Origin: a virus
Lineage: Duplodnaviria > Heunggongvirae > Uroviricota > Caudoviricetes
IMG/VR virus record: IMGVR_UViG_3300035184_001394
Location: 1-64,000 of that record
DNA: 64,000 nucleotides
Reading direction: 5' to 3' (one strand)
The notes beneath the pieces are model-generated. The model did no database searches and was not told the origin of the DNA. It saw only the letters and a list, made by a program, of their open reading frames with translations. Made by a program: the position numbers and the translations under genes. Positions within the stretch are counted from its first letter, which is position 1; each line of letters begins with the position of its first letter. Positions 1-41,286 of the stretch are shown one piece after another.

Positions 1-728
1 ATCATGTTTGCATCAATACGTTCAGCAATACGTTCTTCAGCCATTTCCATTGTAATATACAGTACGTCCTTTCCGTACATCAGATGGTTTGCAGCCATAT
101 GACATTTAATTAACGACTTACCGCCACCAGTAGTTGCTAGTAATACTGTCATTGACTTGCGAGGTAGACCACCTTTGGTAATTGTATTAAGCAAGTCAAT
201 ATCAAAGGGAACTCGTTCTTCTTTCTTATGATAGAAATCGTATCGACCTTCGTATTCTTCTAGATAATCATGACCAACGCTCGAGTCAAAACTGATACCT
301 AGTGAGTCTTGTAAAAGTTTTGGTATTGAACCCTTACCTTCTTCAGTACCATCTTTAGAGCCTTCATCATCAGCATCTAGGATATTAATTGCTTTACGAA
401 TAGAGTTATAAAGATCTTTATTCTGGCAAAACTTTTCAGTTTCATCGAATAGAAATTGAGTATTTGTATCTTTATCAACTTTCAATTCACTGATAGAACT
501 CATTATTTCAGAATAAGATGTTTCGTTTAAGTCTTTACGATTATCAATCGAGATTCGCAGAGCCTCCAATGAAGGAGGCGCCTTATATTGTTCAACATAA
601 TCGCGATAAGAATCAAAGATTTTACGGTGTGTGTTATCATCAAAATATTCGTCTTTAATAAAAGGATATACTTTTGCGTAGTATTCGTTATTATAGACTA
701 AATTAGATAGTATCGTTGTTTCCATCAT
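1..728 (-). CDS. 41: replicative DNA helicase, T4 gp41 / DnaB family (N-terminal ~242 aa; 3' end lies beyond the window edge)
   Basis: Own minus-strand translation: MMETTILSNLVYNNEYYAKVYPFIKDEYF...LATTGGGKSLIKCHMAANHLMYGKDVLYITMEMAEERIAERIDANM. The Walker A and YI(S/T)MEMAEE..RIDAN blocks match T4 gp41 as recalled. Absent from the ORF track because it is open at the edge. The ATG at 726-728 overlaps the uvsX-C stop. Confidence 0.85.
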   Translation of the reverse strand, partial: MMETTILSNLVYNNEYYAKVYPFIKDEYFDDNTHRKIFDSYRDYVEQYKAPPSLEALRISIDNRKDLNETSYSEIMSSISELKVDKDTNTQFLFDETEKFCQNKDLYNSIRKAINILDADDEGSKDGTEEGKGSIPKLLQDSLGISFDSSVGHDYLEEYEGRYDFYHKKEERVPFDIDLLNTITKGGLPRKSMTVLLATTGGGKSLIKCHMAANHLMYGKDVLYITMEMAEERIAERIDANM

Positions 729-1245
729 CTTTCATTTTTCCTGGTATAGTCAATTTATATTTACGTTCGATAAAGTTGTTAAATGTTTCGTTTTTAACAA
801 GAGCTTCGAAGAATTTATCATCAGAACCTAAGTCTTTCTGTCTACGCTTAGGTTCAACAAGCTCACCAGTTTCTTGGTCAACAACATTATACCAGCCTTG
901 AGTGGCGCCTTTTGCTATATGTCCAGATTCAATAGCTAAGTCAAACAATGCTGACCACTTTTGAATACCAGAATCATACAATACAGTGAATGGTAGTTTT
1001 GCTTTTTCACGAACAAAACGAGATTTTTCGATATTGATTGTAAATTTAAATCCTGCTAAATCAGTACCATCTTTTTCTTGAGACTTACTAATAATAAAGA
1101 TTTGATTTGCTGAATAATAGATACCAGTATTGTGTGTTACTATACCATTTTTGAGTACATAATGTTGCTCATCATAATTTTCAGTTGCTATTGATAAATC
1201 ATAAACCGGTTTTCTACCAACCTGTTTAACGTTAACTATTTTCAT
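703..1245 (-). CDS. uvsX: UvsX recombinase, C-terminal fragment: 39-aa split-intein C half followed by the C-extein
   Basis: MKIVNVKQVGRKPVYDLSIATENYDEQHYVLKNGIVTHN|TGIYYSANQIFIISKSQEKDGTDLAGFKF... Intein blocks F/G end in HN+T. The extein is collinear with T4 UvsX ..GGTGPMYSADTVFIIGKRQIKDG.. There is an AAGGAA RBS before the ATG. Confidence 0.85.
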   Translation of the reverse strand: MKIVNVKQVGRKPVYDLSIATENYDEQHYVLKNGIVTHNTGIYYSANQIFIISKSQEKDGTDLAGFKFTINIEKSRFVREKAKLPFTVLYDSGIQKWSALFDLAIESGHIAKGATQGWYNVVDQETGELVEPKRRQKDLGSDDKFFEALVKNETFNNFIERKYKLTIPGKMKDDGNNDTI

Positions 1246-1574
1246 TTTGTTTCCTTATTTCATTAAGATATAGCTTTCTAGCTAGAGCAATTGTATCACT
1301 AAATAACAGTACAATCCATTCCAACAACTAAATCTTTAGCTTCAACCCATTCTTCGTTAACCAAGAATTTATGTTTATCTGAAACAGTTGCTTTAAATCC
1401 ATCTTCAAATTCAACTTCATAACATTCTGGATTGCCATCTTCAAGTGTATCAGGGTTCCAAACATGACTTACAACTTTATCACCGTTTAGAGTAATAACT
1501 TTTTCGCCAACATTGAAGTCTTCAACATTCTTAAGACCATCTGGTGTTTGAATTTCTGTGCCTTCAACTACGCA
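1129..1574 (-). mobile_element. naturally split mini-intein in uvsX (Int-N 1302-1574, 53-bp gap containing a stop and an RBS, Int-C 1129-1245); no endonuclease domain
   Basis: Cys1 sits after the extein GG, block B TxxH-like motif is present, and the terminal HN is followed by Thr+1. The insertion lies exactly inside the conserved UvsX GG|TG motif. The halves are 91 aa and 39 aa, similar in size to DnaE-type split inteins. Confidence 0.75.
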
Positions 1575-2204
1575 ACCACCAGATACAATATTCTTAGGAA
1601 ACATACCAATTTCTTGATAGATATGATTAACAGCTAAACAAGGAATGTTTCTTGTAGTTAGCTTTGGAGTTATGATGCGAAATAAAGATTTAAGTTGCTT
1701 AGCACGAGTCATATCAGCAGCTGAGTTATCTTTCATAGCATCGTCAACTTCTTTCTTAGAAGCTAAGTTACCGATAGAATCGATCATGATGAATACACGA
1801 TCTTTCTTATCAATCTGGTCTAATCGCTTAACGATATCAAATTTAAGCTGTTCAACATCTTCGATTGGAATATGTAGTACACGTGACGTATCAATATCAA
1901 AACTTTCTAAATAATCTGGTGTAATACCAAATTCTGAATCATACAACAAAGCAACACCATCTTTATATTTTTCAAGATATGCTTTCATACAATACAGTGA
2001 TAGTAGAGTTTTGAAACTTTTTGATGCACCAGCGACAACAGTTAGACCTGGGATTAAACCACCTTTAAGTGAACCACTAAAAGCGATATTCACAATTGGT
2101 AATTCAGTCTGAATTGGTTCTTTTTCGTCAAAGAAAGCAGATTTATTTACAACACCAGCTTGTTTGATTGAACCGGATTTTAACATTTTATCTAAAAGAC
2201 TCAT
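1299..2204 (-). CDS. uvsX: UvsX recombinase, N-terminal fragment: RecA-like core N-extein (210 aa) followed by a 91-aa split-intein N half
   Basis: RecA/UvsX core motifs present (VVAGASKSFKT P-loop-like, VFIMIDSIGNLASKKE). At ..KNIVSGG|CVVEGTEIQTPDG the Hint block A begins, with block B at TVSDKHKF. The ORF ends at TAG 1299-1301. Confidence 0.85.
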   Translation of the reverse strand: MSLLDKMLKSGSIKQAGVVNKSAFFDEKEPIQTELPIVNIAFSGSLKGGLIPGLTVVAGASKSFKTLLSLYCMKAYLEKYKDGVALLYDSEFGITPDYLESFDIDTSRVLHIPIEDVEQLKFDIVKRLDQIDKKDRVFIMIDSIGNLASKKEVDDAMKDNSAADMTRAKQLKSLFRIITPKLTTRNIPCLAVNHIYQEIGMFPKNIVSGGCVVEGTEIQTPDGLKNVEDFNVGEKVITLNGDKVVSHVWNPDTLEDGNPECYEVEFEDGFKATVSDKHKFLVNEEWVEAKDLVVGMDCTVI

Positions 2205-30669: not shown

Positions 30670-30921
30670 ATGTTTAATTTTACACTAGGTAACGACAAGT
30701 TTTTAATAGAAATTAATTACATTTCAGGTATACAGAAGCGCTTTTGGGTATACAGTTTTAATATGAGTAATGGAAATGTAAATAATTGCAACTATGTCTC
30801 TGACTTAAACAGACCAATAGATATTTTTGCTGGTGATAAATACGAAAATAAAATAGAATCAATATATCAAATTGGTTATAAACGCGGCCTATTAAGTTTT
30901 TTAAAAGGGAAAAATAAATGA
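30670..30921 (+). CDS. hypothetical protein (83 aa)
   Basis: ORF track; ATGA overlap with the next gene. Confidence 0.45.
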   Translation: MFNFTLGNDKFLIEINYISGIQKRFWVYSFNMSNGNVNNCNYVSDLNRPIDIFAGDKYENKIESIYQIGYKRGLLSFLKGKNK

Positions 30922-31403
30922 GTAATGATTTAGTAAAAGACATTAGTGAAATGCACCAAAAGTTTGGTGTAAACGACTGGTTTGAAAAGAATAAACACGA
31001 CAAAGTATTAATGAAAGAATTCCTTAGATTCCGTATTAACATGTGTCTTGAAGAATTGCTTGAAACAGCAACTGCAGCCAACTTAGTGCTACATACTGAT
31101 ATTCAAGAAGGTCTAGTGTTTAAAGAATCTCAAAACAACGATTTGTGTATTGATTCTGAAGAAGTAGTAGATGGCTTAATCGATCTTTCTGTGTTCGCTA
31201 TTGGTACATTAGACGTGTTTAATGCTGATGCAAACAAAGCTTGGGATGCTGTATACGATGCGAATATGGTTAAAGAATCTGGTGTTAAACCTGGTCGCCC
31301 AAATAAATGGGGTCTTCCTGATATGATAAAACCGAAAATGGAAACACATGGCTACGACTGGGTAGCTCCATCTCATGAAGGTAATCACGGAGATTTTAAA
31401 TGA
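30918..31403 (+). CDS. MazG / PRA-PH-like all-alpha NTP pyrophosphohydrolase
   Basis: FRINMCLEELLE (EExxE-type metal site), VVDGLIDLSVFAIGT (second acidic helix), then ..VYDANMVK...GKP..KP..W..P tail as in MazG-like phage enzymes. Confidence 0.6.
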   Translation: MSNDLVKDISEMHQKFGVNDWFEKNKHDKVLMKEFLRFRINMCLEELLETATAANLVLHTDIQEGLVFKESQNNDLCIDSEEVVDGLIDLSVFAIGTLDVFNADANKAWDAVYDANMVKESGVKPGRPNKWGLPDMIKPKMETHGYDWVAPSHEGNHGDFK

Positions 31404-31681: not shown

Positions 31682-32101
31682 ATGAAATACGATAACGGTA
31701 AAACAGATTTATCATTGATACCACCAGAAGTCTTAGTTGACATTGCGTGTGTATTAGGCTTTGGTGCAAAGAAATATGGTAGGGATAATCACCGCTTTGA
31801 TGCTGGAGAAACTGAATGGAGTAGAGTATATGCTTCAGCCCAACGCCACTTGCATGATTTTTGGTCAGGTGAAGATTTTGACCCAGAATCTGGTCAGAAA
31901 CATATAACACACGCAATTACCCAATTGATTATTCTTGCAACTGCAATTAACGATGGCCATACGAATATGGATGACCGGTTTTTTACAAAATTAAAACAGT
32001 TAAGCACTACAGAAAAACCAAAACCCGACAGTCTCTTAGATACTAAAGCAACTAAACATGCACCCTATGTATATTTAAAGTCTCGGGAGATTATTGAATA
32101 A
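31682..32101 (+). CDS. dNTP diphosphohydrolase-like protein (KYDxGK...FGAxKYG family, MazZ-related N-terminal domain)
   Basis: MKYDNGKTDLSLIPPEVLVDIACVLGFGAKKYGRDN...SAQRHLHDFWSGEDFDPESGQKHITHAI matches the pattern I associate with the dATP/dGTP diphosphohydrolase N-terminal domain family. Confidence 0.5.
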   Translation: MKYDNGKTDLSLIPPEVLVDIACVLGFGAKKYGRDNHRFDAGETEWSRVYASAQRHLHDFWSGEDFDPESGQKHITHAITQLIILATAINDGHTNMDDRFFTKLKQLSTTEKPKPDSLLDTKATKHAPYVYLKSREIIE

Positions 32102-32850
32102 TGATAGTTGAAGATATACGTAAATACTTTAAAGAAGAACTTGCTGCAGAACGTTTCACTATTGATAAAACTGGTGCTAAAACGATCGAGTTGTTAGGTG
32201 CTAGCTTTATTGCTGATGAACCTGCTATTTTTGGTATTCCTAATCAAGAATATATTGATGCTGAAATAAAATGGTACAATAGTTGTTCTACTAATATTAA
32301 TACATTAGAAAAAATTTATGGTAAGAAACCAGCTGCGTGGGCTTACTCAGCAAATTCTTATGGCGAAATCAATTCGAATTATGGTCATCTTTTGTTTGAA
32401 CCAAAGTACTATAATCAATTTGAAAATGCTGTAAAAGAACTAATCAATAACCCTGATAGTAGACGTGCTCAACTAACATACACTAGACCTTCTGTATGGG
32501 TTGATTTTAACGAAAGCGGCAAAAACGATTTCATATGTACTTTAGGTCAACTGTTTTATATACGTGATAATAAATTACATATGGTAAGCATGATGCGAAG
32601 CAACGACTCTTGGGCTGGTTATCGCAATGATTATGCTTGGGCTAAATATCTTATGGAACTCGCTGTTAACGAATACAATGTTGGATGTGAAAATACTCCT
32701 ATTGCTATTGGTAATCTGTATTGGCAAGTAGCCAATATGCACATATATGAAAGAAATTTCTATTTAGTTGATTATTATTCAAAAACAGGTAAATTTCATA
32801 TTTCTAAACCCGACTATGCTGCAAAATATCCGAATAGTCAATATAATTAA
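32101..32850 (+). CDS. 42: deoxycytidylate 5-hydroxymethyltransferase (T4 gp42-like)
   Basis: Collinear with T4 gp42 as recalled: FTIDKTGAKTIELLGASFIADEP.IFG, GEINSNYG, NPDSRR, NDFICT (catalytic Cys), MRSNDSWAGYRNDYAW (Asp of RNDYAW = cytosine-specifying residue), HIYERNFYLVD, GKFHISKPDY. Confidence 0.85.
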   Translation: MIVEDIRKYFKEELAAERFTIDKTGAKTIELLGASFIADEPAIFGIPNQEYIDAEIKWYNSCSTNINTLEKIYGKKPAAWAYSANSYGEINSNYGHLLFEPKYYNQFENAVKELINNPDSRRAQLTYTRPSVWVDFNESGKNDFICTLGQLFYIRDNKLHMVSMMRSNDSWAGYRNDYAWAKYLMELAVNEYNVGCENTPIAIGNLYWQVANMHIYERNFYLVDYYSKTGKFHISKPDYAAKYPNSQYN

Positions 32851-33837: not shown

Positions 33838-35118
33838 ATGTCTAAAATTAATATCGCTATTGCCGGCGTCGGTAATTGCTCATCAGCACTTATTCAAGGT
33901 GTAGAATACTATAAAGAAAATCCAGAAGATACCATAGGTCTTATGTTTGAAGACATCGGTGGTTTTTCTGCTAAAAACTTTAATTTTGTTGTTGGATTTG
34001 ATGTCGATGCCCGTAAAGTTGGCCAACGATTAAATAACTCAATCTATGCTAAACCAAATTGTAACATGGAAGTATATCCTCCAAGTCATAATTTGACTTG
34101 TATAGCATCTAAATCGACAGTATACAGATCGCCAACATTTGATGGTATAGCACCTCACATGCACGATTTACATCCTGATATATCCTTCGTAGAAGATACA
34201 GAAACTCTGGCTATCACGGCTAATGAATACATTCAAATTCTTAAAGATAACAAAGTTGATGTATTACTTAACTATATGCCAGTTGGTTCTGAAACAGCAG
34301 CTCGTTGGCACATTGAAAATGCTATTCGCGCAGGTGTCCATATTGTTAACTGTATGCCAACATATATATCTACTAAAGATGCAATGGAACTTGAGAGACT
34401 TGCTATCGAACATGGCGTAACAGTTGTTGGTTCTGACATGCGTTCTGATTACGGCGCGTCACGTTTATCTGAGGTGTTACAAGGTTCAATTATGGATTCT
34501 GGATTGTTGGTTACTCAACACATCCAAGAAAACAAAGCTTGTGGAACTACTCAAGGTGATATGCGCCGTACTGGTCGTACTGCAAATACTGACTTCTTAA
34601 ACATGGCAACTAAAGATCGTTTAAAAAATAAACATATCTCTAAAGAAAATGTTTTAAATGGTCAAGCTGCTGTACGTGGTAAAGATATTGCTGGTCTTAC
34701 AATGTATGCTGGTCCGTCACTTACAGTTTTCCAAAAACCAGGTGATGAATACATTGGTTCAGATAATAAGATTGCTAATATTGATATGGTATTCTGGGGA
34801 TGGGCTGGGGCTCGCTATGAATTGACTGCTCGTTTATCTGTTCAAGATTCTCCTAATAGTGCTGGAATTGTATTTGATGCAGTTCGTTTTTGCAAAGTTG
34901 CTGCTGAGATGGGTATTGTTGGTTACTTACGTGGTCCATCGGCACACTCTCAAAAGACACCACCAACTCAGCTAAAAACTGCTGATTCAAAATTCGAATG
35001 CGAAGCATTAGCTCGTAGGATTTTAACTGATCTTACTCGTCCGCAACTCGCCGAAAATTACCCACAAGTTGAAGATTTGCTTTATACATTCCAAGCTGAT
35101 ACTTCAGATTACGAATAA
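33838..35118 (+). CDS. myo-inositol-1-phosphate synthase family enzyme (bacterial Ino1 type)
   Basis: INIAIAGVGNCSSALIQGVEYY, FVVGFDVDARKVG, VDVLLNYMPVGSE, TDFLNM, RLKNKHISK, LSVQDSPNSAGIVFDAVRFCKVA and KTPPTQL are collinear with actinobacterial Ino1 as recalled. Confidence 0.8.
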   Translation: MSKINIAIAGVGNCSSALIQGVEYYKENPEDTIGLMFEDIGGFSAKNFNFVVGFDVDARKVGQRLNNSIYAKPNCNMEVYPPSHNLTCIASKSTVYRSPTFDGIAPHMHDLHPDISFVEDTETLAITANEYIQILKDNKVDVLLNYMPVGSETAARWHIENAIRAGVHIVNCMPTYISTKDAMELERLAIEHGVTVVGSDMRSDYGASRLSEVLQGSIMDSGLLVTQHIQENKACGTTQGDMRRTGRTANTDFLNMATKDRLKNKHISKENVLNGQAAVRGKDIAGLTMYAGPSLTVFQKPGDEYIGSDNKIANIDMVFWGWAGARYELTARLSVQDSPNSAGIVFDAVRFCKVAAEMGIVGYLRGPSAHSQKTPPTQLKTADSKFECEALARRILTDLTRPQLAENYPQVEDLLYTFQADTSDYE

Positions 35119-35132
35119 AGGAAAAATATATT

Positions 35133-35510
35133 ATGAATACTTTTGATATTGATGGTGTGATTTATATGGGTAAAGACCATGACGGCGTTTACCCTGGGCC
35201 GAACGACTTGATTATTACTGGTCGTTCTATTGAAGAAAAACCAGAAACTATTAGGATGCTGCAGCAGAAAGGGATTAATAATAAAGTTTATTTTAATCCC
35301 TTACCATTTAAACAAAAGACCAGAGAAAGTTCTGGTCACCATAAAGCAGACATCATTTCAGCTCTTATTACATTAGGTTGTCCTATAGATATCCACTTTG
35401 AAGATGATCCAATACAAGCTGATATAATCAAAAAGGTTACATCAATTCACGTTGTATTATTAAACCACAACTTAACTGAAAAGGAGAATATGCGCCATGG
35501 GGGATACTGA
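35133..35510 (+). CDS. HAD-superfamily phosphatase (small, capless)
   Basis: Motif I FDIDGV, motif II IITGRS and motif IV HFEDDP. Confidence 0.55.
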   Translation: MNTFDIDGVIYMGKDHDGVYPGPNDLIITGRSIEEKPETIRMLQQKGINNKVYFNPLPFKQKTRESSGHHKADIISALITLGCPIDIHFEDDPIQADIIKKVTSIHVVLLNHNLTEKENMRHGGY

Positions 35511-36240
35511 AATGTATAAAGGCTATAAAATTAGAACAGGCCCGGGTATTGATCGTGATATGATTCGCGATTCACTAAAACATTATAGCCACTTCTCACT
35601 TGATAAAAAATCAGTAGTGCTTGATCTTGGTTCTAATATTGGTGGATTTACTAGGATGGCAAACGAAAAAGAAGTTAAACAATACATAGCAGTAGAACCA
35701 GATCCAGAAAATATGGAATTAACAACTGTTAATTCCATAGACGGAAGTAATAACTTATATTTGTTGGGTGTAGCCTCTATTTCTGAATCAGAACATTTAA
35801 CGTTTTTTCAATCTAATGCTGTAAGATCAAAATGCTCTGGAACTATTAATAGTAAAAGTCAAACAGCTACTAGAAAGAATGGCACTGCATACGATGTTGT
35901 TAATTATAATGTGTATGAACTGTTGGAAAAATATAAACCTACTCATGTCAAATGTGATATAGAAGGAGCAGAAATTGATTGGTTAGCTGATTGCGAAGGT
36001 ATATTTCCAGACTATATTCAGGAGTTGGCGTTTGAGTTGCATGGTAGAGCTGGTATAGTAGAACTCGAGCGATATTACGATAATATAATTGAACATTTTG
36101 AAATAGTTAGTTTTGTTCCATCTGTTGGGTTTAAAGGCAGTTTTAATAAAAAAGACGCTGTACTGTATGAAAAAGTTGGATATACAACAGAAGGTACTTT
36201 GTGGAGCATAGACTTATTCTTGCGTAGAAGAGTAAAATAA
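35497..36240 (+). CDS. FkbM-family SAM-dependent methyltransferase
   Basis: VVLDLGSNIGGFTRMA (motif I), AVEPDPENMELT and HVKCDIEGAEIDWL (FkbM signature iDvEG.E). An alternative start exists at 35512. Confidence 0.7.
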   Translation: MGDTEMYKGYKIRTGPGIDRDMIRDSLKHYSHFSLDKKSVVLDLGSNIGGFTRMANEKEVKQYIAVEPDPENMELTTVNSIDGSNNLYLLGVASISESEHLTFFQSNAVRSKCSGTINSKSQTATRKNGTAYDVVNYNVYELLEKYKPTHVKCDIEGAEIDWLADCEGIFPDYIQELAFELHGRAGIVELERYYDNIIEHFEIVSFVPSVGFKGSFNKKDAVLYEKVGYTTEGTLWSIDLFLRRRVK

Positions 36241-37406
36241 TGATTGATGGTACACATAAATCATACGAAGTACCTAAAGGATTTAAATCTGCTGACTCAA
36301 ATTATCCACTGGATAAATATTTTGATTTGTGCGACGTTGAGAAATTTCTTGACTTTAAATATTTTGTATGCGAAGTTAATAAGAGATCGGAATGGCAAAG
36401 GGGTCTTATTACAACATACGATTATAAAGAGTATGCTCTTAATCCAAATACAGAATACTTTCATCCGATGATTACATACGACGATCGTATGGTTTATATC
36501 GCTGAAAATATAGTAGGATTATCAAGCGACACTTTATCTCTACACAATAAGATTGGTAACACAATTATATCTCACTTCTATGGAGCTAGAGGTATTCACC
36601 AGATTGCCACTCGTAATAATGACGTTAAAACTGCTCATGTTGATTTTGAAAACTATTTTACTACTGACGAGCGCTCTCGTATACGAGAAAATTTAAAACT
36701 TTCAAAAATTGCTGGTTTGCCTATATATGGTTCTACTGAATTGCGTACTTCTCTCTGGGGTGCTGCAAACAAATATCAACAAAGCCGTTTTAATGTTACA
36801 ACCGAAGAAGAAAGAAAGCACCCTGGAAATATTATGGATTGGGTAGCTGGTTTATGCGAAGATGGAACTTTTGATCGTTTAATTAGTTGTAATTCTATTA
36901 AAGAAGCATTTAATGAACTCACTTCTAACGCTGGTATTGGAAGTTATTATGGATTCCATTGTGCTACTTCAAATTCAGTAAACCCTGAGTTGAACTGGAC
37001 TAATGATGATAACTTCGTTAAACCTGGACCTGGTGCTCAATATACTTTAAAGTTGATGTTTCCAAACGCAACAAATAAGTTAATTAACAGTGGCGATCTT
37101 GTTATATGGTTTAGACACAATCAAAAGTTCTTTGGTTTTGGCGATATTGAAATCCATGAATCTGCTCATAATATTTTAAATTTTGAAGGCAAAAAGATTC
37201 TTGAAAAAGATCAAACCGAAATGATGACTTATGGTTCTGAGGTTGCTATGTGCCAATATGGTATTTTTTGTAAGTTGCGCGAAGATAAAAAAGCTTGCGA
37301 TAGACGTAAAGTTGCCCGTATAGGAGATAGAAACATTGAAAAAATGCTAAATATGGCTGAGCAAGAACAAATTTCTCAAGCAGCATTTCAACAATTTTTT
37401 ACATGA
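36240..37406 (+). CDS. alpha-glutamyl/putrescinyl-thymine pyrophosphorylase (aGPT-Pplase)-like putative DNA base hypermodification protein
   Basis: NAGIGSYYGFHCATSNSVNPELNWTNDDNFVKPGPGAQYTL resembles the G.G.F.AYE...DL......D...W...GPGAQRG block I recall from this family. Based on memory only, so tentative. Confidence 0.4.
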   Translation: MIDGTHKSYEVPKGFKSADSNYPLDKYFDLCDVEKFLDFKYFVCEVNKRSEWQRGLITTYDYKEYALNPNTEYFHPMITYDDRMVYIAENIVGLSSDTLSLHNKIGNTIISHFYGARGIHQIATRNNDVKTAHVDFENYFTTDERSRIRENLKLSKIAGLPIYGSTELRTSLWGAANKYQQSRFNVTTEEERKHPGNIMDWVAGLCEDGTFDRLISCNSIKEAFNELTSNAGIGSYYGFHCATSNSVNPELNWTNDDNFVKPGPGAQYTLKLMFPNATNKLINSGDLVIWFRHNQKFFGFGDIEIHESAHNILNFEGKKILEKDQTEMMTYGSEVAMCQYGIFCKLREDKKACDRRKVARIGDRNIEKMLNMAEQEQISQAAFQQFFT

Positions 37407-37413
37407 GGTAAAT

Positions 37414-38517
37414 ATGAAAACAATTATAGCAGCACCATTCATCCCTATGTCGTTTCAGATAACGAGTCATAGGGCAGCACAAGGAATTATATATGCTGAT
37501 TTGCTTAAACACTATCACACAGACGATATTTCAGTAAGCTTATCTAGACCAAGCGTACAAGGTCCCGAAGCTAAAGAATCAAACAAAACAGAAGATTTTA
37601 ACGAATATGATAGATTATATATCTATCATGGTAATGATCGTAAAGCAGACGCTGGTGATCTAAACTTTTTTGGTGGAACTCGAAATTTCCCTCATGCTTA
37701 CAATATTAGAAATATTTCTAAATTTAAAGGTGAAGTTTATTCTATTGGATATGATATGCCTGATTATGCTACTATGTTAGAGCACAAGATTACTGGCCAT
37801 GAAAAGCGAGATGGTACACTTGACACAATGGTTCCTGAATTTCTCGAAGTTGATATTGATAATTTAAGAGCAATGCAAGAAAGAGCGATCACAATTATAC
37901 CACAACATCCTAGTTGGAGCGGTTTAGTGATCGGTGATAGTCATGCTATTTGTATGTATCGTGAAGGATATAATGTTAATTCAGTTCCGTTTAAAACTTT
38001 GTATGGAGCCTTAGAATTAGGCTTAAAAAGTTTCATAAATAAAAATGACATTAAGGATATTGAATGTTACTTTGGTAACATTGATATACGTCATCACATT
38101 TGTAGACAGGACGATCATAAACAAGCTATTAGAGATCTTGTTGATCGTTATGTCGACCAAGTCGATTCTTTGGATATGGAAAGTAAAGTGATCTATGAAC
38201 TATTACCTATCGAAAACGAACGCAGAAATCTTCCAAAAAGCGGATGGTATCTTGGTGAGAAATTTCATGGTACGTGGGCTGAGCGTAACGCAGCAAGACT
38301 TTACTTTAAAGAATACTCAATGAAAAGAGTTCAAGGAACGAGTGTTGAATTTCGTGAATGGCTCACTCCATCGTATTATAATGAATTAGGTGAACTTGAT
38401 TTTAAAGCTATGGAGCGACCAAAATCAGTTCATTTATCTCGTGAATACTATCCTCATTGGCAAGGACTTGAATACAATAAAATTAATAAAACAACAATTG
38501 AGGATTTTTTTCAATGA
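37414..38517 (+). CDS. two-domain protein: unknown N-terminal domain + SGNH/GDSL-hydrolase-like C-terminal domain
   Basis: GLVIGDSHAICMY (GDS block I) at residue ~170 and a later GNIDIRHH. The N-terminal 170 aa have no recognised motif. Confidence 0.35.
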   Translation: MKTIIAAPFIPMSFQITSHRAAQGIIYADLLKHYHTDDISVSLSRPSVQGPEAKESNKTEDFNEYDRLYIYHGNDRKADAGDLNFFGGTRNFPHAYNIRNISKFKGEVYSIGYDMPDYATMLEHKITGHEKRDGTLDTMVPEFLEVDIDNLRAMQERAITIIPQHPSWSGLVIGDSHAICMYREGYNVNSVPFKTLYGALELGLKSFINKNDIKDIECYFGNIDIRHHICRQDDHKQAIRDLVDRYVDQVDSLDMESKVIYELLPIENERRNLPKSGWYLGEKFHGTWAERNAARLYFKEYSMKRVQGTSVEFREWLTPSYYNELGELDFKAMERPKSVHLSREYYPHWQGLEYNKINKTTIEDFFQ

Positions 38518-39740
38518 AGCACGCAACGATCATACCACTTATAGGAGGCGAAGCACTAGCATCTACTGAAGTATTTGGAACTAAACCAGAATACATTTTG
38601 TCTTATAAAGGATTTGAAAACAATGAAAAACACTTACTAAACTATTGGAATAACGAAGTACCCTATCATGTACTTGACGATGAGAACAGTATTGCTCCTA
38701 AAAATATTAATGAGAAAGTTGATGTTATATCGAGTGTCTGTCCTTGTGCTGGATTAAGTCAATATCATTCTAAACACGGAGCTGAAAATCAAAATAACCA
38801 ATGGATGGAGAAAACAGCCAAGCATATTCTAGAAACCGTACAACCGAGTGTATTTTGGGGAGAAAATGCTCCTGCTCTTGTTGGTAAGATCGGTGAGTTT
38901 ATGTTAACTAAACTACGTAAAATTGGCCTCGATAATGGATACTCTATGGGTCTATATCTTACTAAGAATATTAAACATGGTATTCCACAATTTCGTAAAC
39001 GCACTTTCTATTTCTTCTGGAAGAAAAGCGAGTTTGGTGATACTGCACCAATGCTTAAATTTATTAACAAAGAACACACAAAAATTGAAGATGTAATTAT
39101 GAGCGCTACTGGTAGTACACAGTTAGAACCAATTAATTCTAAAATTCCAAGCAAAGACGATCCTTACTATAGATATCTTCTTGAAGTAATTCATGGTGGT
39201 ATTACGCATAGAGAATATTTTGAGTTATTAAAAACTAAAAATGTTCGAGGCAACGATGTAGAATCTATTATTATAAATTCAGGTCACGATTATATGATGG
39301 TTGGTGAATGGATGGAAAAAAATGGATACGACAGAGAAGTTCCAAAATGTGAACGAAAATATCATAAGCTAAAAGATGGTGGCAATATAATGCGACGTGG
39401 CACTATTATTCCTAAAGATTATATTGGAGCTTTTGTTGGTCATTATCCGACAGTTCTTACTCATCCATATGAAGATCGTTATATTAATTATCGCGAAGCA
39501 ATGACTATTATGGGATTACCACAAGATTACGAATTGTTAGACCCTAAAAAATCTGCTAATCATATTTGTCAGAATGTTCCATTACAAACTGCTAAAGATA
39601 TGGTGTTAGAAATTAAAGCTGTTTTCGAAGGAAAGCGCCAATTTTCTGATACTGATTTTTTATTACAATCTAACATAAACGAAACATCCAGAACTTTGAA
39701 TATACCAGATAAAGAGCAAAGTTTAGAATCATTTTTCTGA
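38514..39740 (+). CDS. DNA (cytosine-5) methyltransferase-fold enzyme
   Basis: Motif I-like IIPLIGGE, motif IV SSVCPCAGLSQ (PC dipeptide), motif VI GENAPAL, motif VIII IPQFRKRTFYF and motif X CQNVPLQTA. ATGA overlap with the upstream gene. Confidence 0.7.
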   Translation: MKHATIIPLIGGEALASTEVFGTKPEYILSYKGFENNEKHLLNYWNNEVPYHVLDDENSIAPKNINEKVDVISSVCPCAGLSQYHSKHGAENQNNQWMEKTAKHILETVQPSVFWGENAPALVGKIGEFMLTKLRKIGLDNGYSMGLYLTKNIKHGIPQFRKRTFYFFWKKSEFGDTAPMLKFINKEHTKIEDVIMSATGSTQLEPINSKIPSKDDPYYRYLLEVIHGGITHREYFELLKTKNVRGNDVESIIINSGHDYMMVGEWMEKNGYDREVPKCERKYHKLKDGGNIMRRGTIIPKDYIGAFVGHYPTVLTHPYEDRYINYREAMTIMGLPQDYELLDPKKSANHICQNVPLQTAKDMVLEIKAVFEGKRQFSDTDFLLQSNINETSRTLNIPDKEQSLESFF

Positions 39741-39805: not shown

Positions 39806-40438
39806 ATGAAAAAAGAATTATTAATAGATTTCGAAACATTAGGAATAAATCCTGAAAATTGCGTAGTACTCGACTGCTCGATTATTATCTTCGACAGAGA
39901 GAGATTCACATCTGATAAACCGTACACAGTAGCGGATATTACTGAAACTAAAACATTTAAAATATCTGTTACTGATCAGGTTAACAATTACAATTATGCT
40001 GTTGAAAACAGTGTTATTGAATTTTGGTCTAAACAAGATAAAGAAGTGCGAGCAAAAATTAAGCCGCTACCAACTGATCTTACTGTTAAGGAATTTACTG
40101 ATCAGTTTCTCAACTTAGTTTCTCAGCACAAAATTAGTTATTGGTGGTCTCGTGGAAACACGTTTGATCCACCTATTCTAACTAGAATTTTTGATGATCA
40201 AGGTAAGAAAAATGAATTAAATAAGAATTTAAAATATTGGGCAGTAAGAGATATGCGCACGTTTATTGACGCAAAACTCGATTTCCCGAAAGAAAATGGT
40301 TTTTCTCCTTTTGAAGATGAAGTAAAATGGGGGAAAATATTTAAAAAGCATGATAGCTCTTGGGATGTTTTAGCTGATGTTTTAAGATTACAAGCGATCG
40401 CGAGAGCCGAAGATGATTTGGAACAAGTGAAATTATGA
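39806..40438 (+). CDS. dexA: exonuclease A (DexA, DEDD 3'-5' exonuclease)
   Basis: LLIDFETLG (ExoI), EFWSKQDKEVRAKI, WWSRGNTFDPPIL, YWAVRDMRTFI and HDSSWDVLADV parallel T4 DexA (IIDFETMG, EWWKNQSPEARKNI, GMSFDFPIL, FWNQRDIRT, HDSIHDCAKD). Confidence 0.8.
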   Translation: MKKELLIDFETLGINPENCVVLDCSIIIFDRERFTSDKPYTVADITETKTFKISVTDQVNNYNYAVENSVIEFWSKQDKEVRAKIKPLPTDLTVKEFTDQFLNLVSQHKISYWWSRGNTFDPPILTRIFDDQGKKNELNKNLKYWAVRDMRTFIDAKLDFPKENGFSPFEDEVKWGKIFKKHDSSWDVLADVLRLQAIARAEDDLEQVKL

Positions 40439-41286
40439 AGATAGAAGCGACAATTGAACAATTAAGAGGAGCATCACTTTTTATTGGCGCACCAATGTAT
40501 GGAGGTAATTGCTCTGGTTTATTCACTAAATCTTGTACTGACTTATCTTCAATATGCGCGCTTAACGGAATTAAATTACAATACTATTTCTTATTCAACG
40601 AAAGTTTAGTTCAAAGAGCGCGAAATTACGTTACTGACGAATTTATGCGTTCTGGTTGTACTCATCTAATGTTTATAGACTCAGACATTGGTTTCGATGC
40701 TAGAGATGTTCTACACTTATTAAGCCTTCAGATATTAGATCCCAAGTATGATGTAATAACTGGACCTTATCCTAAGAAAACAATAGCTTGGGAAAAAGTT
40801 AGTAAAGCAGCTAAACTCGGCCATGGCGCAGAAAACCCCTTTGAATTAGAGAAATTTACAGCTGATTTCGTATTCAACCCAGAAGACAATAAAAATAGTT
40901 TTAATCTCGGTGAACCAATTAAAGTTAAAGAAGCAGGAACTGGTTTCATGTTAATTCCTCGCGTAACTCTTGAAAAATATCAAGAAGCTTATCCTGAAAT
41001 GAATTACAAACCAGACCACTTGCGATCTGAATCTTTTGACGGAGCTCGTAATATTACAGCATTTTTTGATTGTATTATAGACCCTAAGACGAAACGTTAT
41101 TTGTCTGAAGATTATTTCTTTTGTCATAAGACTCGTGAAGCTGGGATGAGTGTTTGGATGTGCCCTTGGATGCAAATCAACCATGTTGGTTCTTATATAT
41201 TTAGAGGCAATATGGCTGCGATTACTCAGTTGGGTGTTACTGCAACAGCAGACAATTCTGGTCAAAAGAAGAATTATAAAAAATAA
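40435..41286 (+). CDS. GT-A-fold glycosyltransferase-like protein
   Basis: Rossmann-like N-terminus (LFIGAPMYGG), NESLVQRARN and DxD motif THLMFIDSDIGF. ATGA overlap with dexA. Confidence 0.5.
   Translation: MKIEATIEQLRGASLFIGAPMYGGNCSGLFTKSCTDLSSICALNGIKLQYYFLFNESLVQRARNYVTDEFMRSGCTHLMFIDSDIGFDARDVLHLLSLQILDPKYDVITGPYPKKTIAWEKVSKAAKLGHGAENPFELEKFTADFVFNPEDNKNSFNLGEPIKVKEAGTGFMLIPRVTLEKYQEAYPEMNYKPDHLRSESFDGARNITAFFDCIIDPKTKRYLSEDYFFCHKTREAGMSVWMCPWMQINHVGSYIFRGNMAAITQLGVTATADNSGQKKNYKK

What the first reader, a model, noticed from the sequence alone, without database searches (positions are those of the whole stretch)
36240..37406. aGPT-Pplase-like protein in an hmC (not hmU) phage
Seen: ORF 36240-37406 contains ..NAGIGSYYGFHCATSNSVNPELNWTNDDNFVKPGPGAQYTLKLMF.. 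This resembles the G.G.F.AYE...DL..(n)..D...W...GPGAQRG core I recall from proteins annotated as putative DNA base hypermodification proteins (alpha-glutamyl/putrescinyl thymine pyrophosphorylase clades). Established: characterised members act on 5-hmdU-derived DNA together with a 5-hmdU DNA kinase. Here the hydroxymethylase carries the cytosine-specifying Asp (RNDYAW), so the substrate would be hmC, and no kinase is visible in the window. Either the enzyme acts on hmC by a different activation route, or the family assignment is wrong.
Basis: inference. Interest (0 to 1): 0.6.

Follow-up and report, generated by a model that had tools for sequence, protein, structure and literature searches.

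The report
Kinase-less hydroxymethylcytosine DNA hypermodification cassette
A T4-like phage that makes hydroxymethylcytosine carries a relative of the enzymes that decorate hydroxymethyluracil in other phages, here locked into a widespread four-gene cassette with a sugar-alcohol (inositol-type) synthesis pair and no kinase, which points to an undescribed way of decorating cytosine in viral DNA.

Summary

The hmC context is also right. The neighbouring thymidylate-synthase homologue is a T4 gp42 orthologue (E 7e-71). All 24 such neighbours of homologues elsewhere carry the hm-dCMP-synthase signature.

No 5-hmU-type kinase was found in the window, near 80 related loci, or in 106 kb of Aeromonas phage 44RR2.8t.

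Instead the gene sits in a conserved cassette:
- an inositol-phosphate-synthase-like gene;
- a small HAD phosphatase;
- the target;
- a two-domain protein (T4 β-glucosyltransferase-like N-domain plus SGNH acetyl-esterase fold);
- often an FkbM methyltransferase.

Fusions link the last three.

My best reading is inferred, not shown: a kinase-independent transfer of a free polyol onto the 5-methylene of hmC in DNA. I found no published description.

The parts
36240..37406 (+). The target: a 388-aa helix-hairpin-helix, DNA-glycosylase-like protein. It is a divergent branch of Pfam PF18723 (former aGPT-Pplase clade 1). Invariant features are the HhH hairpin G232-I-G234, P262-G-P-G265 and E334-x3-C338-Q339.
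37414..38517 (+). A 367-aa two-domain partner protein. The N-terminal domain is related to the hmC-DNA-binding N-domain of T4 beta-glucosyltransferase. The C-terminal domain has the SGNH (GDSL) acetyl-esterase/acyltransferase fold, with GDS176H, G221-N222 and H340.
33838..35118 (+). A 426-aa myo-inositol-phosphate-synthase-like (cyclitol-phosphate synthase) protein. It is a core cassette member.
   Evidence: M. tuberculosis Ino1 (1GR0) E 2.7e-48; five-membered cyclitol-P synthase 6K96 E 2e-27. TIGR03450 scores 198 bits, far below the 638-bit equivalog cut-off. It is present next to the target homologue in 78/82 loci. The canonical DDxKS lysine is Arg in most phage copies.
35133..35510 (+). A 125-aa small HAD-type phosphatase with an N-terminal DxDGV motif. 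It is a core cassette member.
   Evidence: phrog_415 (phosphatase part of polynucleotide kinase), E 2.9e-6. The sequence shows the MNTFDIDGVIY motif directly. It is present in 78/82 loci.
35497..36240 (+). A 247-aa FkbM-family (O-)methyltransferase. It is an optional cassette member (about half of loci) and is sometimes fused to the target family.
   Evidence: PF05050 E 1.7e-6. TIGR01444 E 2e-15. Found in 38-40 loci. Fusions: P0054, P0071, P0361, P0395.
32101..32850 (+). A 249-aa dCMP hydroxymethylase, the T4 gp42 orthologue. It supplies the hm-dCMP that becomes hmC in DNA.
   Evidence: T4 deoxycytidylate hydroxymethylase (1B5E family) E 6.6e-71 over the full length, with RNDYAW aligned to T4 D179. 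It carries the L143D, D169 and N177D signature (diagnostic residues from PMC13326640).
30918..31403 (+). A 161-aa MazG-like nucleotide pyrophosphohydrolase. It is a candidate for clearing dCTP from the pool; that role is inferred.
   Evidence: phrog_671 E 3.7e-14; PRA-PH E 0.0016.
38514..39740 (+). A 408-aa C5-cytosine DNA methyltransferase-like protein. It is an accessory gene found only in the window's own sub-clade. Its role in an hmC phage is unexplained.
   Evidence: PF00145 E 5e-21. Present in 8-9 of the related loci, always just after the 367-aa gene.
40435..41286 (+). A 283-aa protein of phrog_1574 with a faint GT-A-like signal. It is a sub-clade-specific accessory and a possible further tailoring enzyme.
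   Evidence: phrog_1574 E 2.5e-58. Glyco_transf_21 E 0.012, which is not significant. Present in 7 loci.

Best explanation
SHOWN.
- The ORF encodes a helix-hairpin-helix, DNA-glycosylase-fold protein.
- It is a deep branch of Pfam PF18723, the former aGPT-Pplase clade 1.
- It keeps the Glu-x3-Cys pair that is the metal ligand and the C6-attacking nucleophile in the characterised clade-2 amino-acid/polyamine:DNA transferases.
- It lies in a T4-like phage with a genuine dCMP hydroxymethylase.
- It is one member of a conserved cassette: inositol-phosphate-synthase-like gene, small HAD phosphatase, the target, a two-domain beta-glucosyltransferase-N/SGNH protein, and sometimes an FkbM methyltransferase. 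The cassette contains no kinase.

INFERRED MECHANISM.
1. hm-dCTP is incorporated, so the DNA carries hmC.
2. The synthase and the phosphatase make a free cyclitol or polyol. In Aeromonas phages a vSGLT-type sugar symporter next to the fused enzyme imports one instead.
3. The target flips hmC out of the duplex. Cys338 adds to C6, the 5-CH2-O substituent leaves, and an exocyclic methylene forms.
4. A hydroxyl of the polyol attacks the methylene. This gives a 5-(polyol-O-methyl)cytosine ether, analogous to the O-linked serine transfer by ViI gp247.
5. FkbM then O-methylates the adduct in the cassettes that have it.
6. The SGNH partner binds the same hmC site through its BGT-like domain. It either pre-activates the hydroxyl as an acetyl/acyl ester, taking the place of the kinase, or acylates/deacylates the attached polyol.

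Which of the two roles the partner has is undecided. So is whether any activation of the hydroxyl is needed.
For: Family and fold:
- Pfam PF18723 47.3 bits.
- The A1 profile reaches full-length PF18723 proteins at E 1e-8 to 1e-11.
- hhalign aligns E334xxxC338 with clade-1 E265xxxC269. The same spacing occurs in clade 2 (E243/C247 in PaMx11 gp46; E222/C226 in phage 15599, PMC13458397). The Cys and Glu are essential in M6 gp51 and ViI gp247 (PMC8989533).
- The motif is present in 78/78 homologues and in the 24%-identical Aeromonas fusion.

hmC context:
- T4 gp42 orthologue, E 6.6e-71.
- 24/24 neighbouring TS homologues have D143, D169 and D177, while the dUMP-hydroxymethylase control PaMx11 gp51 has Asn.
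- 44RR2.8t has genes 42, 56 and 1 and no glucosyltransferases.

Cassette:
- Present in 73-78 of 82 loci.
- Fusions: SGNH367+target in Aeromonas ORF233c, FkbM+target+SGNH367 in P0361, FkbM+target in P0054/P0071.

A free polyol as co-substrate:
- A synthase plus a phosphatase, with no nucleotidyltransferase in the cassette.
- A vSGLT-like symporter (E 3e-103) sits adjacent in 44RR2.8t.

DNA as substrate:
- BGT-like N-domain in the partner.
- Lys-rich linker plus a small C-terminal domain that by eye resembles a DNA-binding winged helix (not searched) in some homologues.
- The cassette is embedded in replication and nucleotide-metabolism genes.

No kinase.
Against: - No member of PF18723 has a demonstrated activity, and M6 gp55 was dispensable in vitro (PMC8989533).
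- The match to PF18723 covers only profile positions 130-237. hhalign probability to clade 1 is only 26%. hhalign to gp46 alone finds nothing.
- I could not superpose the model on 8z2m, so the spatial equivalence of C338 and C247 is untested.
- The Thr that follows the Glu and helps bind the metal in clade 2 is Val here.
- The synthase-like protein is far below the equivalog cut-off and has Arg for a canonical Lys. The product may not be myo-inositol.
- Ralstonia phage RP13 has the synthase (73% identity) plus the HAD without the rest. That pair can therefore serve other purposes.
- The SGNH partner also occurs without the target, next to UDP-galactopyranose mutase and a GT-like gene in Aeromonas phage 25. 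This fits a tailoring role better than an activating one.
- The window is only part of a genome, so a kinase could lie outside it.
Confidence: 0.45

Rival explanations
1. The protein is a non-catalytic (or only auxiliary) base-flipping or recognition module for 5-hydroxymethylpyrimidines in DNA. It presents the 5-CH2OH group to whichever partner enzyme derivatises it. Here the partners would be the SGNH/BGT-like protein and the FkbM O-methyltransferase. The actual chemistry, including any polyol attachment, would be done by the partners.
For: PF18723 is found fused to very different hydroxyl-modifying enzymes:
- a 5-hmdU DNA kinase (P0426);
- a GT-B glycosyltransferase (P0505);
- FkbM methyltransferases (P0054, P0071, P0361);
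- the SGNH protein (Aeromonas ORF233c, P0361).

Pfam now names the family a 'helical domain' of the kinase. M6 gp55 was not needed for kinase or transferase steps in vitro (PMC8989533).
Against: - Glu-x3-Cys-Gln is invariant in 78/78 homologues and in the classical clade. So are about 55 other mostly polar positions. That is unusual for a mere binding module.
- The partner already has its own BGT-like DNA/hmC-binding domain.
- No other cassette member is a plausible transferase for an unactivated polyol.
Confidence: 0.25
2. This is the canonical route. A hydroxymethylpyrimidine DNA kinase encoded elsewhere in the genome, or a host kinase, phosphorylates hmC. The target then displaces phosphate, exactly as in hmU phages.
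For: All characterised relatives use 5-phosphomethyl-dU (PMC8989533, PMC11472151, PMC13458397). The window covers only 64 kb of a probably much larger T4-like genome. An uncharacterised P-loop protein exists in 44RR2.8t (ORF048c).
Against: - No Walker-A kinase is conserved within -8/+6 kb of the target homologue (same strand scanned) in the 82 loci compared (80 viral loci, jumbo-phage contig L003 and the window). In hmU systems the kinase is adjacent or fused.
- None was recognised in 106 kb of early regions of 44RR2.8t apart from gp1, tk and replication ATPases.
- ORF048c has Walker A plus B and no homologue in the window or the loci.
Confidence: 0.12
3. The protein is not a group transferase. 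It could be a DNA glycosylase-type enzyme (repair, anti-defence or defence), or a nucleotide-level hydrolase like the queuosine-salvage protein DUF2419, acting on hm-dCMP or a derivative rather than on DNA.
Against: - The best structural match and the only sequence-family match are the hypermodification enzymes.
- A glycosylase would destroy the phage's own hmC DNA.
- The tight cassette with a polyol supply and the fusions to a methyltransferase and an acyl-esterase-fold protein argue for biosynthesis.
Confidence: 0.08

Closest known systems
aGPT-Pplase clade 1 (Pfam PF18723, now 'HMUDK_hel'); examples are Pseudomonas phage M6 gp55 and PaMx11 gp50
   Same: - Scores above the Pfam gathering score.
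- Shares the HhH hairpin, the PGPGA loop, the Asp about 22 residues after the hairpin, and the E-x3-C motif in the C-terminal helix.
- Both are phage genes next to a thymidylate-synthase-family hydroxymethylase.
   Different: - Only the central third of the profile matches.
- About 16% identity, and about 50-90 residues longer.
- Associated with dCMP rather than dUMP hydroxymethylases.
- No kinase and no clade-2 paralogue nearby.
- The partners are a cyclitol-phosphate-synthase-like gene, a HAD, a BGT-N/SGNH protein and FkbM.
- The function of clade 1 itself is unknown.
Amino-acid/polyamine:DNA transferases (AADT, aGPT-Pplase clade 2, PF18724 'ADDT'): PaMx11 gp46/PUGT (8Z2M), M6 gp51, ViI gp247, PhiW-14 gp109, phage 15599 Pplase2
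   Same: - Same fold.
- Same Glu-x3-Cys spacing near the C-terminus.
- The proposed chemistry is the same: Cys addition at C6, exocyclic methylene, attack by a free small-molecule nucleophile. O-linked transfer has precedent in ViI gp247.
   Different: - No sequence-profile match.
- The substrate base would be hmC, not 5-phosphomethyl-dU.
- No kinase.
- The metal-binding Thr is replaced by Val.
- The inferred donor is a polyol rather than an amino acid or diamine.
T-even hmC glucosylation (T4 gp42 + alpha/beta-glucosyltransferases)
   Same: - The same precursor pathway (gp42 orthologue, T4-like replication genes).
- The partner protein's N-domain is related to the T4 BGT acceptor domain.
- The purpose is presumably the same: masking hmC from host nucleases.
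   Different: - No UDP-sugar-binding GT-B C-domain; an SGNH fold stands in its place.
- The BGT catalytic Asp100 position is not conserved.
- The cassette makes or imports a free, non-nucleotide-activated polyol.
- The cassette needs an HhH enzyme that T-even phages lack.
HhH-GPD DNA glycosylases and the queuosine-salvage hydrolase DUF2419
   Different: No sequence similarity. An invariant Cys/Glu pair replaces the glycosylase catalytic apparatus. The genomic context is biosynthetic.

Membership tests
Pfam PF18723 (HMUDK_hel = former aGPT-Pplase clade 1) | Score above the curated gathering threshold of the family HMM | tested here: met
   47.3 bits against a cut-off of 25, E 2.4e-12. All 120 listed homologues carry precomputed PF18723. 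The A1 profile hits full-length classical members (P0416, P0420, P0424) at E 1e-8 to 1e-11.
Pfam PF18723 (HMUDK_hel = former aGPT-Pplase clade 1) | Colinear match over the whole ~280-position domain | tested here: not met
   Only residues 187-296 match profile positions 130-237 of 281. hhalign extends this to the C-terminal E-x3-C helix (197-335 against 152-281), but the N-terminal about 185 residues are not aligned.
Pfam PF18723 (HMUDK_hel = former aGPT-Pplase clade 1) | Conserved motifs: HhH hairpin (LGDFMAYE), PGPGA loop, E-x3-C in the last long helix | tested here: met
   GIGSYYGFH, PGPGA and E334VAMC338 align with YLGDFMAYE, PGPGA and E265HTLC269. Present in 78/78 homologues.
Pfam PF18723 (HMUDK_hel = former aGPT-Pplase clade 1) | Genomic association with a 5-hmdU DNA kinase, a clade-2 paralogue and a dUMP hydroxymethylase | tested here: not met
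   There is no kinase and no PF18724 gene in the window or in the 82 loci compared. All 24 neighbouring TS homologues are of the cytosine type. The contrast is PaMx11 gp46-gp51.
AADT / aGPT-Pplase clade 2 (PF18724) | Match to the family HMM or to member sequences | tested here: not met
   No hit even at E<=10. A profile search of PDB sequences finds nothing. hhalign against PaMx11 gp46 gives probability 0.2%.
AADT / aGPT-Pplase clade 2 (PF18724) | Same three-dimensional fold | tested here: met
   [not shown]
AADT / aGPT-Pplase clade 2 (PF18724) | Catalytic Cys with a Glu four residues upstream, placed at the flipped-base pocket | tested here: inconclusive
   The sequence motif and its position (about 87% along the chain) match. 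Model coordinates could not be superposed on 8z2m with the tools available.
AADT / aGPT-Pplase clade 2 (PF18724) | Transfers a free nucleophile onto 5-phosphomethyl-dU in DNA | not testable with these tools
   This needs biochemistry.
HhH-GPD DNA glycosylase superfamily | Two alpha-helical domains with an HhH hairpin and a conserved Asp about 20 residues downstream | tested here: met
   [not shown]
T4-type dCMP hydroxymethylase (the neighbour at 32101-32850; this defines the 'hmC phage' claim) | Orthology to T4 gp42, Asp at the E. coli ThyA N177 position, acidic residue at L143, and Asp169 retained (not the 5-hydroxy-dCMP synthase variant) | tested here: met
   E 6.6e-71 over the full length against 1B5E-family chains, with RNDYAW aligned to T4 D179. 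DFIC and RSND motifs are present. Diagnostic residues are as given in PMC13326640.
SGNH/GDSL hydrolase-acyltransferase superfamily (the partner at 37414-38517) | SGNH fold with Ser (block I GDS), Gly, Asn (block III GxN) and His (block V) | tested here: met
   [not shown]
T4 beta-glucosyltransferase (N-terminal domain of the partner at 37414-38517) | Homology to the BGT N-domain, a UDP-glucose-binding C-domain, and the catalytic Asp100 | tested here: inconclusive
   The N-domain relation is supported by three weak but concordant tests. The C-domain is SGNH-like, not a UDP-sugar domain. The Asp100-equivalent column is not conserved. It is therefore related to BGT but is not a BGT.

The most novel reading that the evidence does not exclude
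A widespread, previously undescribed cytosine hypermodification. In it, 5-hmC in phage DNA is converted without any ATP-dependent kinase into a cyclitol or polyol ether (optionally O-methylated). The converting enzyme is a clade-1 aGPT-Pplase-type Cys enzyme. The BGT-N/SGNH partner replaces the kinase by transiently O-acylating the hydroxymethyl group.

If true, this would give clade 1 (PF18723) its first function. It would extend the Pplase chemistry from uracil to cytosine. It would also add a non-glycosidic sugar-alcohol adduct to the list of natural DNA bases.
Probability: 0.25. Interest if true: 0.85.

Novelty: new variant of a known kind. Interest (0 to 1): 0.7.

Why it matters
All biochemically known aGPT-Pplase/AADT pathways start from 5-hydroxymethyluracil and need a DNA kinase. 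Known hmC hypermodifications are made by nucleotide-sugar glycosyltransferases. This cassette combines the two worlds: an hmC precursor pathway, a Pplase-type enzyme, a free-polyol supply and no kinase.

It is not rare. There are 293 viral contigs in IMG/VR, 289 protein clusters, and cultured Aeromonas T4-like phages.

Three things would follow if the reading holds:
- it would give a first handle on the function of PF18723 (clade 1), which has been unexplained since 2013;
- it predicts a new natural DNA base, which would affect restriction and defence evasion and sequencing of environmental phage DNA;
- it could supply enzymes for selective derivatisation of 5-hmC.

The hypothesis is directly testable because phages 44RR2.8t, 31 and 25 are in culture.

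Tried and rejected
- Megablast of 12 kb around the gene against 50,697 phage records found no match. The phage is known only from metagenomes.
- Looking up the window's own protein returned DNA only for a 2.8-kb contig. The rest of the source genome could not be inspected.
- Sequence searches of the PDB with the target profile and with the partner profile found nothing meaningful. The HAD alone also found nothing.
- NCBIfam had no model for the target, the partner or the HAD.
- hhalign of the target family against PaMx11 gp46 alone failed, so the link to clade 2 rests on fold and motif only.
- I considered that the 358-aa gene beside the partner in Aeromonas phage 25 might be a cryptic Pplase. 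hhalign probability was 1.6%, so I rejected this.
- I considered that 44RR2.8t ORF048c might be the missing kinase. It has Walker A and B, no Pfam hit and no homologue in the window or the loci. I rejected it as a conserved component, but it is not excluded for that phage.
- I considered the 5-hydroxy-dCMP synthase alternative for the TS homologue. I rejected it because Asp169 is retained.
- The Iyer et al. 2013 paper that defined the clades is not held in the library. The identity 'PF18723 = clade 1' therefore rests on synteny and on my memory of the earlier Pfam name.
- Literature searches for inositol/cyclitol or SGNH in phage DNA hypermodification found nothing relevant.
Full report
**1. 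Observation.**
ORF 36240-37406 (+, 388 aa, ATG) exists and contains the quoted peptide. It is the eighth gene of a tightly packed plus-strand block from about 30.9 to 41.3 kb. Its start overlaps the stop of the upstream FkbM gene, and the next gene begins 8 nt after its stop.

The window is from a T4-like phage of about 33% G+C. It encodes the following:
- a family-B polymerase, gp46/gp47-like nuclease, UvsW, two-subunit topoisomerase II and a gp5-like hub;
- a clamp and clamp loader, read by eye from the ORF translations and the clamp loader's Walker-A motif;
- gp32, a RecA/UvsX-like protein and a T4 baseplate protein.

It has no close relative among 50,697 deposited phage genomes.

**2. What the protein is.**

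*Sequence family.* Against Pfam the only hit, even at E<=10, is PF18723 'HMUDK_hel' (47.3 bits, cut-off 25). The hit covers residues 187-296 and profile positions 130-237 of 281. Nothing named aGPT-Pplase appears, but this is a naming matter:
- PaMx11 gp46, the crystallised clade-2 enzyme, hits PF18724, now called 'ADDT'.
- PaMx11 gp50 lies next to the kinase gp49, where M6-like phages carry 'aGPT-Pplase1' (PMC9476957). It is a full-length PF18723 protein (E 5.6e-41).

*Homologues.* The target has 289 homologous 90%-identity clusters, all PF18723, and 293 viral contigs encode relatives. A profile of the family (A1) searched against 1.84 billion representatives finds 41 proteins at E<=1e-30. 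It then finds a tail of about 300-aa proteins at E 1e-8 to 1e-11 that are full-length classical PF18723 members. The target clade is therefore a deep, distinct branch of clade 1.

*Structure.* The AlphaFold model is confident (pLDDT 91.5, pTM 0.89) and all-helical.

*Catalytic motif.* In clade 2 the catalytic nucleophile is a Cys (C247 in gp46; C226 in phage 15599), with a metal-binding Glu four residues upstream (PMC8989533, PMC11472151, PMC13458397). The target has invariant E334-V-A-M-C338-Q339.
- hhalign of A1 against a classical clade-1 alignment (A3) aligns this with the invariant E265-H-T-L-C269 of clade 1. It also aligns the HhH hairpin and the PGPGA loop (E 7.4e-4, probability 26%).
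- The motif E[VI]xxCQ occurs in 78/78 homologues from viral contigs and in the 24%-identical Aeromonas protein.

I could not superpose coordinates, so the spatial equivalence is inferred from sequence position only.

**3. The substrate side: is this really an hmC phage?**
The TS homologue at 32101-32850 aligns end to end with T4 deoxycytidylate hydroxymethylase (E 6.6e-71). Its RNDYAW motif lies on T4 D179. It has:
- an acidic residue at the ThyA L143 position;
- Asp at N177;
- Asp169 retained, which excludes the recently described 5-hydroxy-dCMP synthases (PMC13326640).

I extracted the TS homologues that lie near target homologues in 24 other loci. All 24 have the same three-residue signature, whereas the dUMP hydroxymethylase of PaMx11 has Asn. 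The link to cytosine is therefore a property of the whole clade, not of this window alone.

**4. The kinase.**
The only Walker-A ORFs in the window are the clamp loader, the gp46-like ATPase and a gp41-like helicase fragment. I clustered the same-strand ORFs between 8 kb upstream and 6 kb downstream of the target homologue across 82 loci. No kinase family is conserved. The recurrent neighbours are PolB, ribonucleotide reductase, dUTPase/MazG-like proteins and small unknowns.

Aeromonas phage 44RR2.8t is a complete cultured genome with a homologue. In 106 kb of its early regions, the P-loop proteins are:
- gp46, gp41, Dda, gp1 dNMP kinase, thymidine kinase and nrdC.10;
- one unknown (ORF048c) with Walker A and B, no Pfam hit and no counterpart in the window or the loci.

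PaMx11 gp49 finds nothing there. By contrast, in hmU phages the kinase is adjacent or fused to PF18723 (P0426).

**5. The cassette.**
tblastn and clustering show that the target homologue is almost always accompanied by three other genes:
- an inositol-phosphate-synthase-like gene (78/82 loci);
- a small HAD phosphatase (78/82 loci);
- the 367-aa gene that follows the target in the window (73/82 loci; the missing cases are mostly truncated contigs).

An FkbM methyltransferase is present in about half of the loci. The same arrangement occurs in a 259-kb jumbo-phage contig.

Gene fusions tie three of the proteins together:
- FkbM + target (P0054, P0071);
- the 367-aa protein + target (Aeromonas phages 44RR2.8t and 31, ORF233c, 795 aa);
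- FkbM + target + the 367-aa protein in one 981-aa chain (P0361).

**6. The partners.**

Its N-terminal domain is related to the acceptor (hmC-DNA) domain of T4 beta-glucosyltransferase. Three tests agree:
- PF09198 is hit weakly by 17 of 34 family members, and no other family by more than one;
- hhalign against T4 BGT gives probability 71%, E 3.7e-5, including the shared NFFGG motif;
- in the Foldseek PDB search T4 BGT is the only other fold found with high probability, 0.92.

The BGT catalytic Asp100 column is not conserved.

*The synthase-like protein.* It is clearly homologous to M. tuberculosis Ino1 (E 2.7e-48) and to a five-membered cyclitol-phosphate synthase. It is far below the equivalog cut-off. 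It usually has Arg in place of the canonical DDxKS lysine. Its product is therefore best described as 'a cyclitol phosphate'.

*The HAD.* It resembles the phosphatase part of polynucleotide kinase.

*The Aeromonas variant.* In 44RR2.8t and its relatives the synthase and the HAD are absent. Instead the fused enzyme lies next to a sodium:sugar symporter closest to Vibrio vSGLT (E 3e-103). That phage has genes 42, 56 and 1 but no glucosyltransferase.

**7. Mechanism.**
Two independent ways of providing a free, non-nucleotide-activated polyol are linked to the same enzyme pair: synthesis plus dephosphorylation, or import. A free small-molecule nucleophile is exactly what Pplase-type enzymes use, and it is not what glycosyltransferases use.

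I therefore propose the following. The target flips hmC out of DNA and adds Cys338 to C6. The oxygen substituent on the 5-methylene is expelled. A polyol hydroxyl is captured, giving an ether. This is analogous to the O-linked serine transfer by ViI gp247 (PMC13458397). FkbM would then O-methylate the adduct.

*The leaving group is the open step.* The options are:
- (a) O-acylation of hmC by the BGT-N/SGNH partner, a functional replacement for the kinase;
- (b) direct loss of water from the C6 adduct. From my own knowledge, this has chemical precedent in the bisulfite conversion of 5-hmC to the methylenesulfonate, and in C5-methyltransferase-directed substitution of 5-hmC by thiols;
- (c) an unseen kinase.

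One observation speaks against (a). In Aeromonas phage 25 the partner occurs without the target, next to UDP-galactopyranose mutase and a GT-like gene. This suggests it may instead acylate or deacylate whatever is attached to hmC.

*Rivals.* The main rival is that PF18723 is a recognition or base-flipping module for partner enzymes. It is found fused to a kinase, a GT-B glycosyltransferase, FkbM and the SGNH protein, all of which are hydroxyl-modifying enzymes. M6 gp55 was dispensable in vitro. The invariance of Glu-x3-Cys argues for catalysis but does not prove it.

A glycosylase or nucleotide-level role is less likely. A canonical kinase encoded elsewhere is not excluded.

**8. Comparison and novelty.**
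The protein formally belongs to PF18723 but fails two things that typify that family: full-length colinearity, and association with a 5-hmU kinase, a clade-2 paralogue and a dUMP hydroxymethylase. It works most like clade-2 AADTs but is not a member of that family. I found no paper describing this cassette or any Pplase-type enzyme linked to hmC.

I rate it a new variant of a known kind. The fold, the probable chemistry and the biological purpose are known. New are the base (hmC), the absence of a kinase, the polyol supply and the BGT-N/SGNH partner.

Its second alternative, a wrong family, is rejected.

Noticed in passing
window 38514-39740 (+): A C5-cytosine DNA methyltransferase-like gene (PF00145, E 5e-21; PC and ENA motifs present). 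It overlaps the end of the SGNH-partner gene, in a phage that should replace C by hmC. It occurs only in the window's own sub-clade (8-9 loci). What it methylates, or whether it does other C6-covalent chemistry on hmC, is unexplained.
   Followed up: partly
window 31682-32101 (+) and 30918-31403 (+): A dATP/dGTP diphosphohydrolase N-domain protein (PF18909, E 1.9e-27) and a MazG-like pyrophosphohydrolase lie directly upstream of the dCMP hydroxymethylase. The purine-directed enzyme is unexpected beside a cytosine pathway. No PurZ-like gene was looked for.
   Followed up: no
window 1299-2204 (-) and 703-1245 (-): The RecA/UvsX-like gene ends in Hint/intein-splicing matches (residues 211-294). 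The recombinase therefore appears to be interrupted by an intein or split.
   Followed up: no
L002 10001-11032 (Crocinitomix algicola LYPF02000017.1): A 44%-identical bacterial homologue stands alone between an HTH gene and a phage-type integrase. It is near a PLD-helicase, a Schlafen/AlbA_2-HATPase gene and a NUDIX gene. This looks like a mobile or defence island, without the synthase, HAD or SGNH partners. An aGPT-Pplase+HTH architecture is listed as a predicted defence system in PMC13092281.
   Followed up: partly
L090 2776-6047 (Aeromonas phage 25, NC_008208 150841-154112): At the locus syntenic with 44RR2.8t ORF233c, phage 25 has a UDP-galactopyranose mutase (E 5e-54), a 358-aa GT-like protein and the SGNH-partner homologue, but no PF18723 gene. 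This suggests a galactofuranose-based hmC modification tailored by the same partner.
   Followed up: partly
L006 8992-10968 (Ralstonia phage RP13, LC554890): RP13 carries an inositol-phosphate-synthase-like gene 73% identical to the window's, and a HAD-like ORF about 300 nt downstream, but no target or SGNH-partner homologue. The synthase+HAD pair therefore seems to move as a module of its own. Stenotrophomonas Moby-like phages and Caulobacter phage Cr30 also have the synthase.
   Followed up: partly
P0505 (829 aa) and P0426 (616 aa): Classical PF18723 domains are fused to a GT-B glycosyltransferase (PF00534) and to a 5-hmdU DNA kinase domain (PF18748) respectively. The GT fusion is not mentioned in the papers I read.
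   Followed up: partly
L003 11442-13905 (259-kb metagenomic contig): Two RimK-family ATP-grasp alpha-L-glutamate ligases follow the cassette in a jumbo-phage contig. They could add amino acids to the modification or be unrelated.
   Followed up: no
L093 6130-7299 and L088 22273-23712 (Aeromonas phage 44RR2.8t): 44RR2.8t encodes a serine hydroxymethyltransferase, a likely methylene-THF supply for gp42. It also encodes an unknown 479-aa P-loop protein (ORF048c, Walker A and B) next to a DprA-like gene.
   Followed up: partly
P0046, P0052, P0065: Some target homologues carry a C-terminal extension: a lysine-rich linker followed by a small conserved domain (...GHNDVLSVVLERGGLGL..NWKESWAIMQEMV..G.L...GRKY). 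By eye it looks like a winged-helix DNA-binding domain. It was not searched.
   Followed up: no
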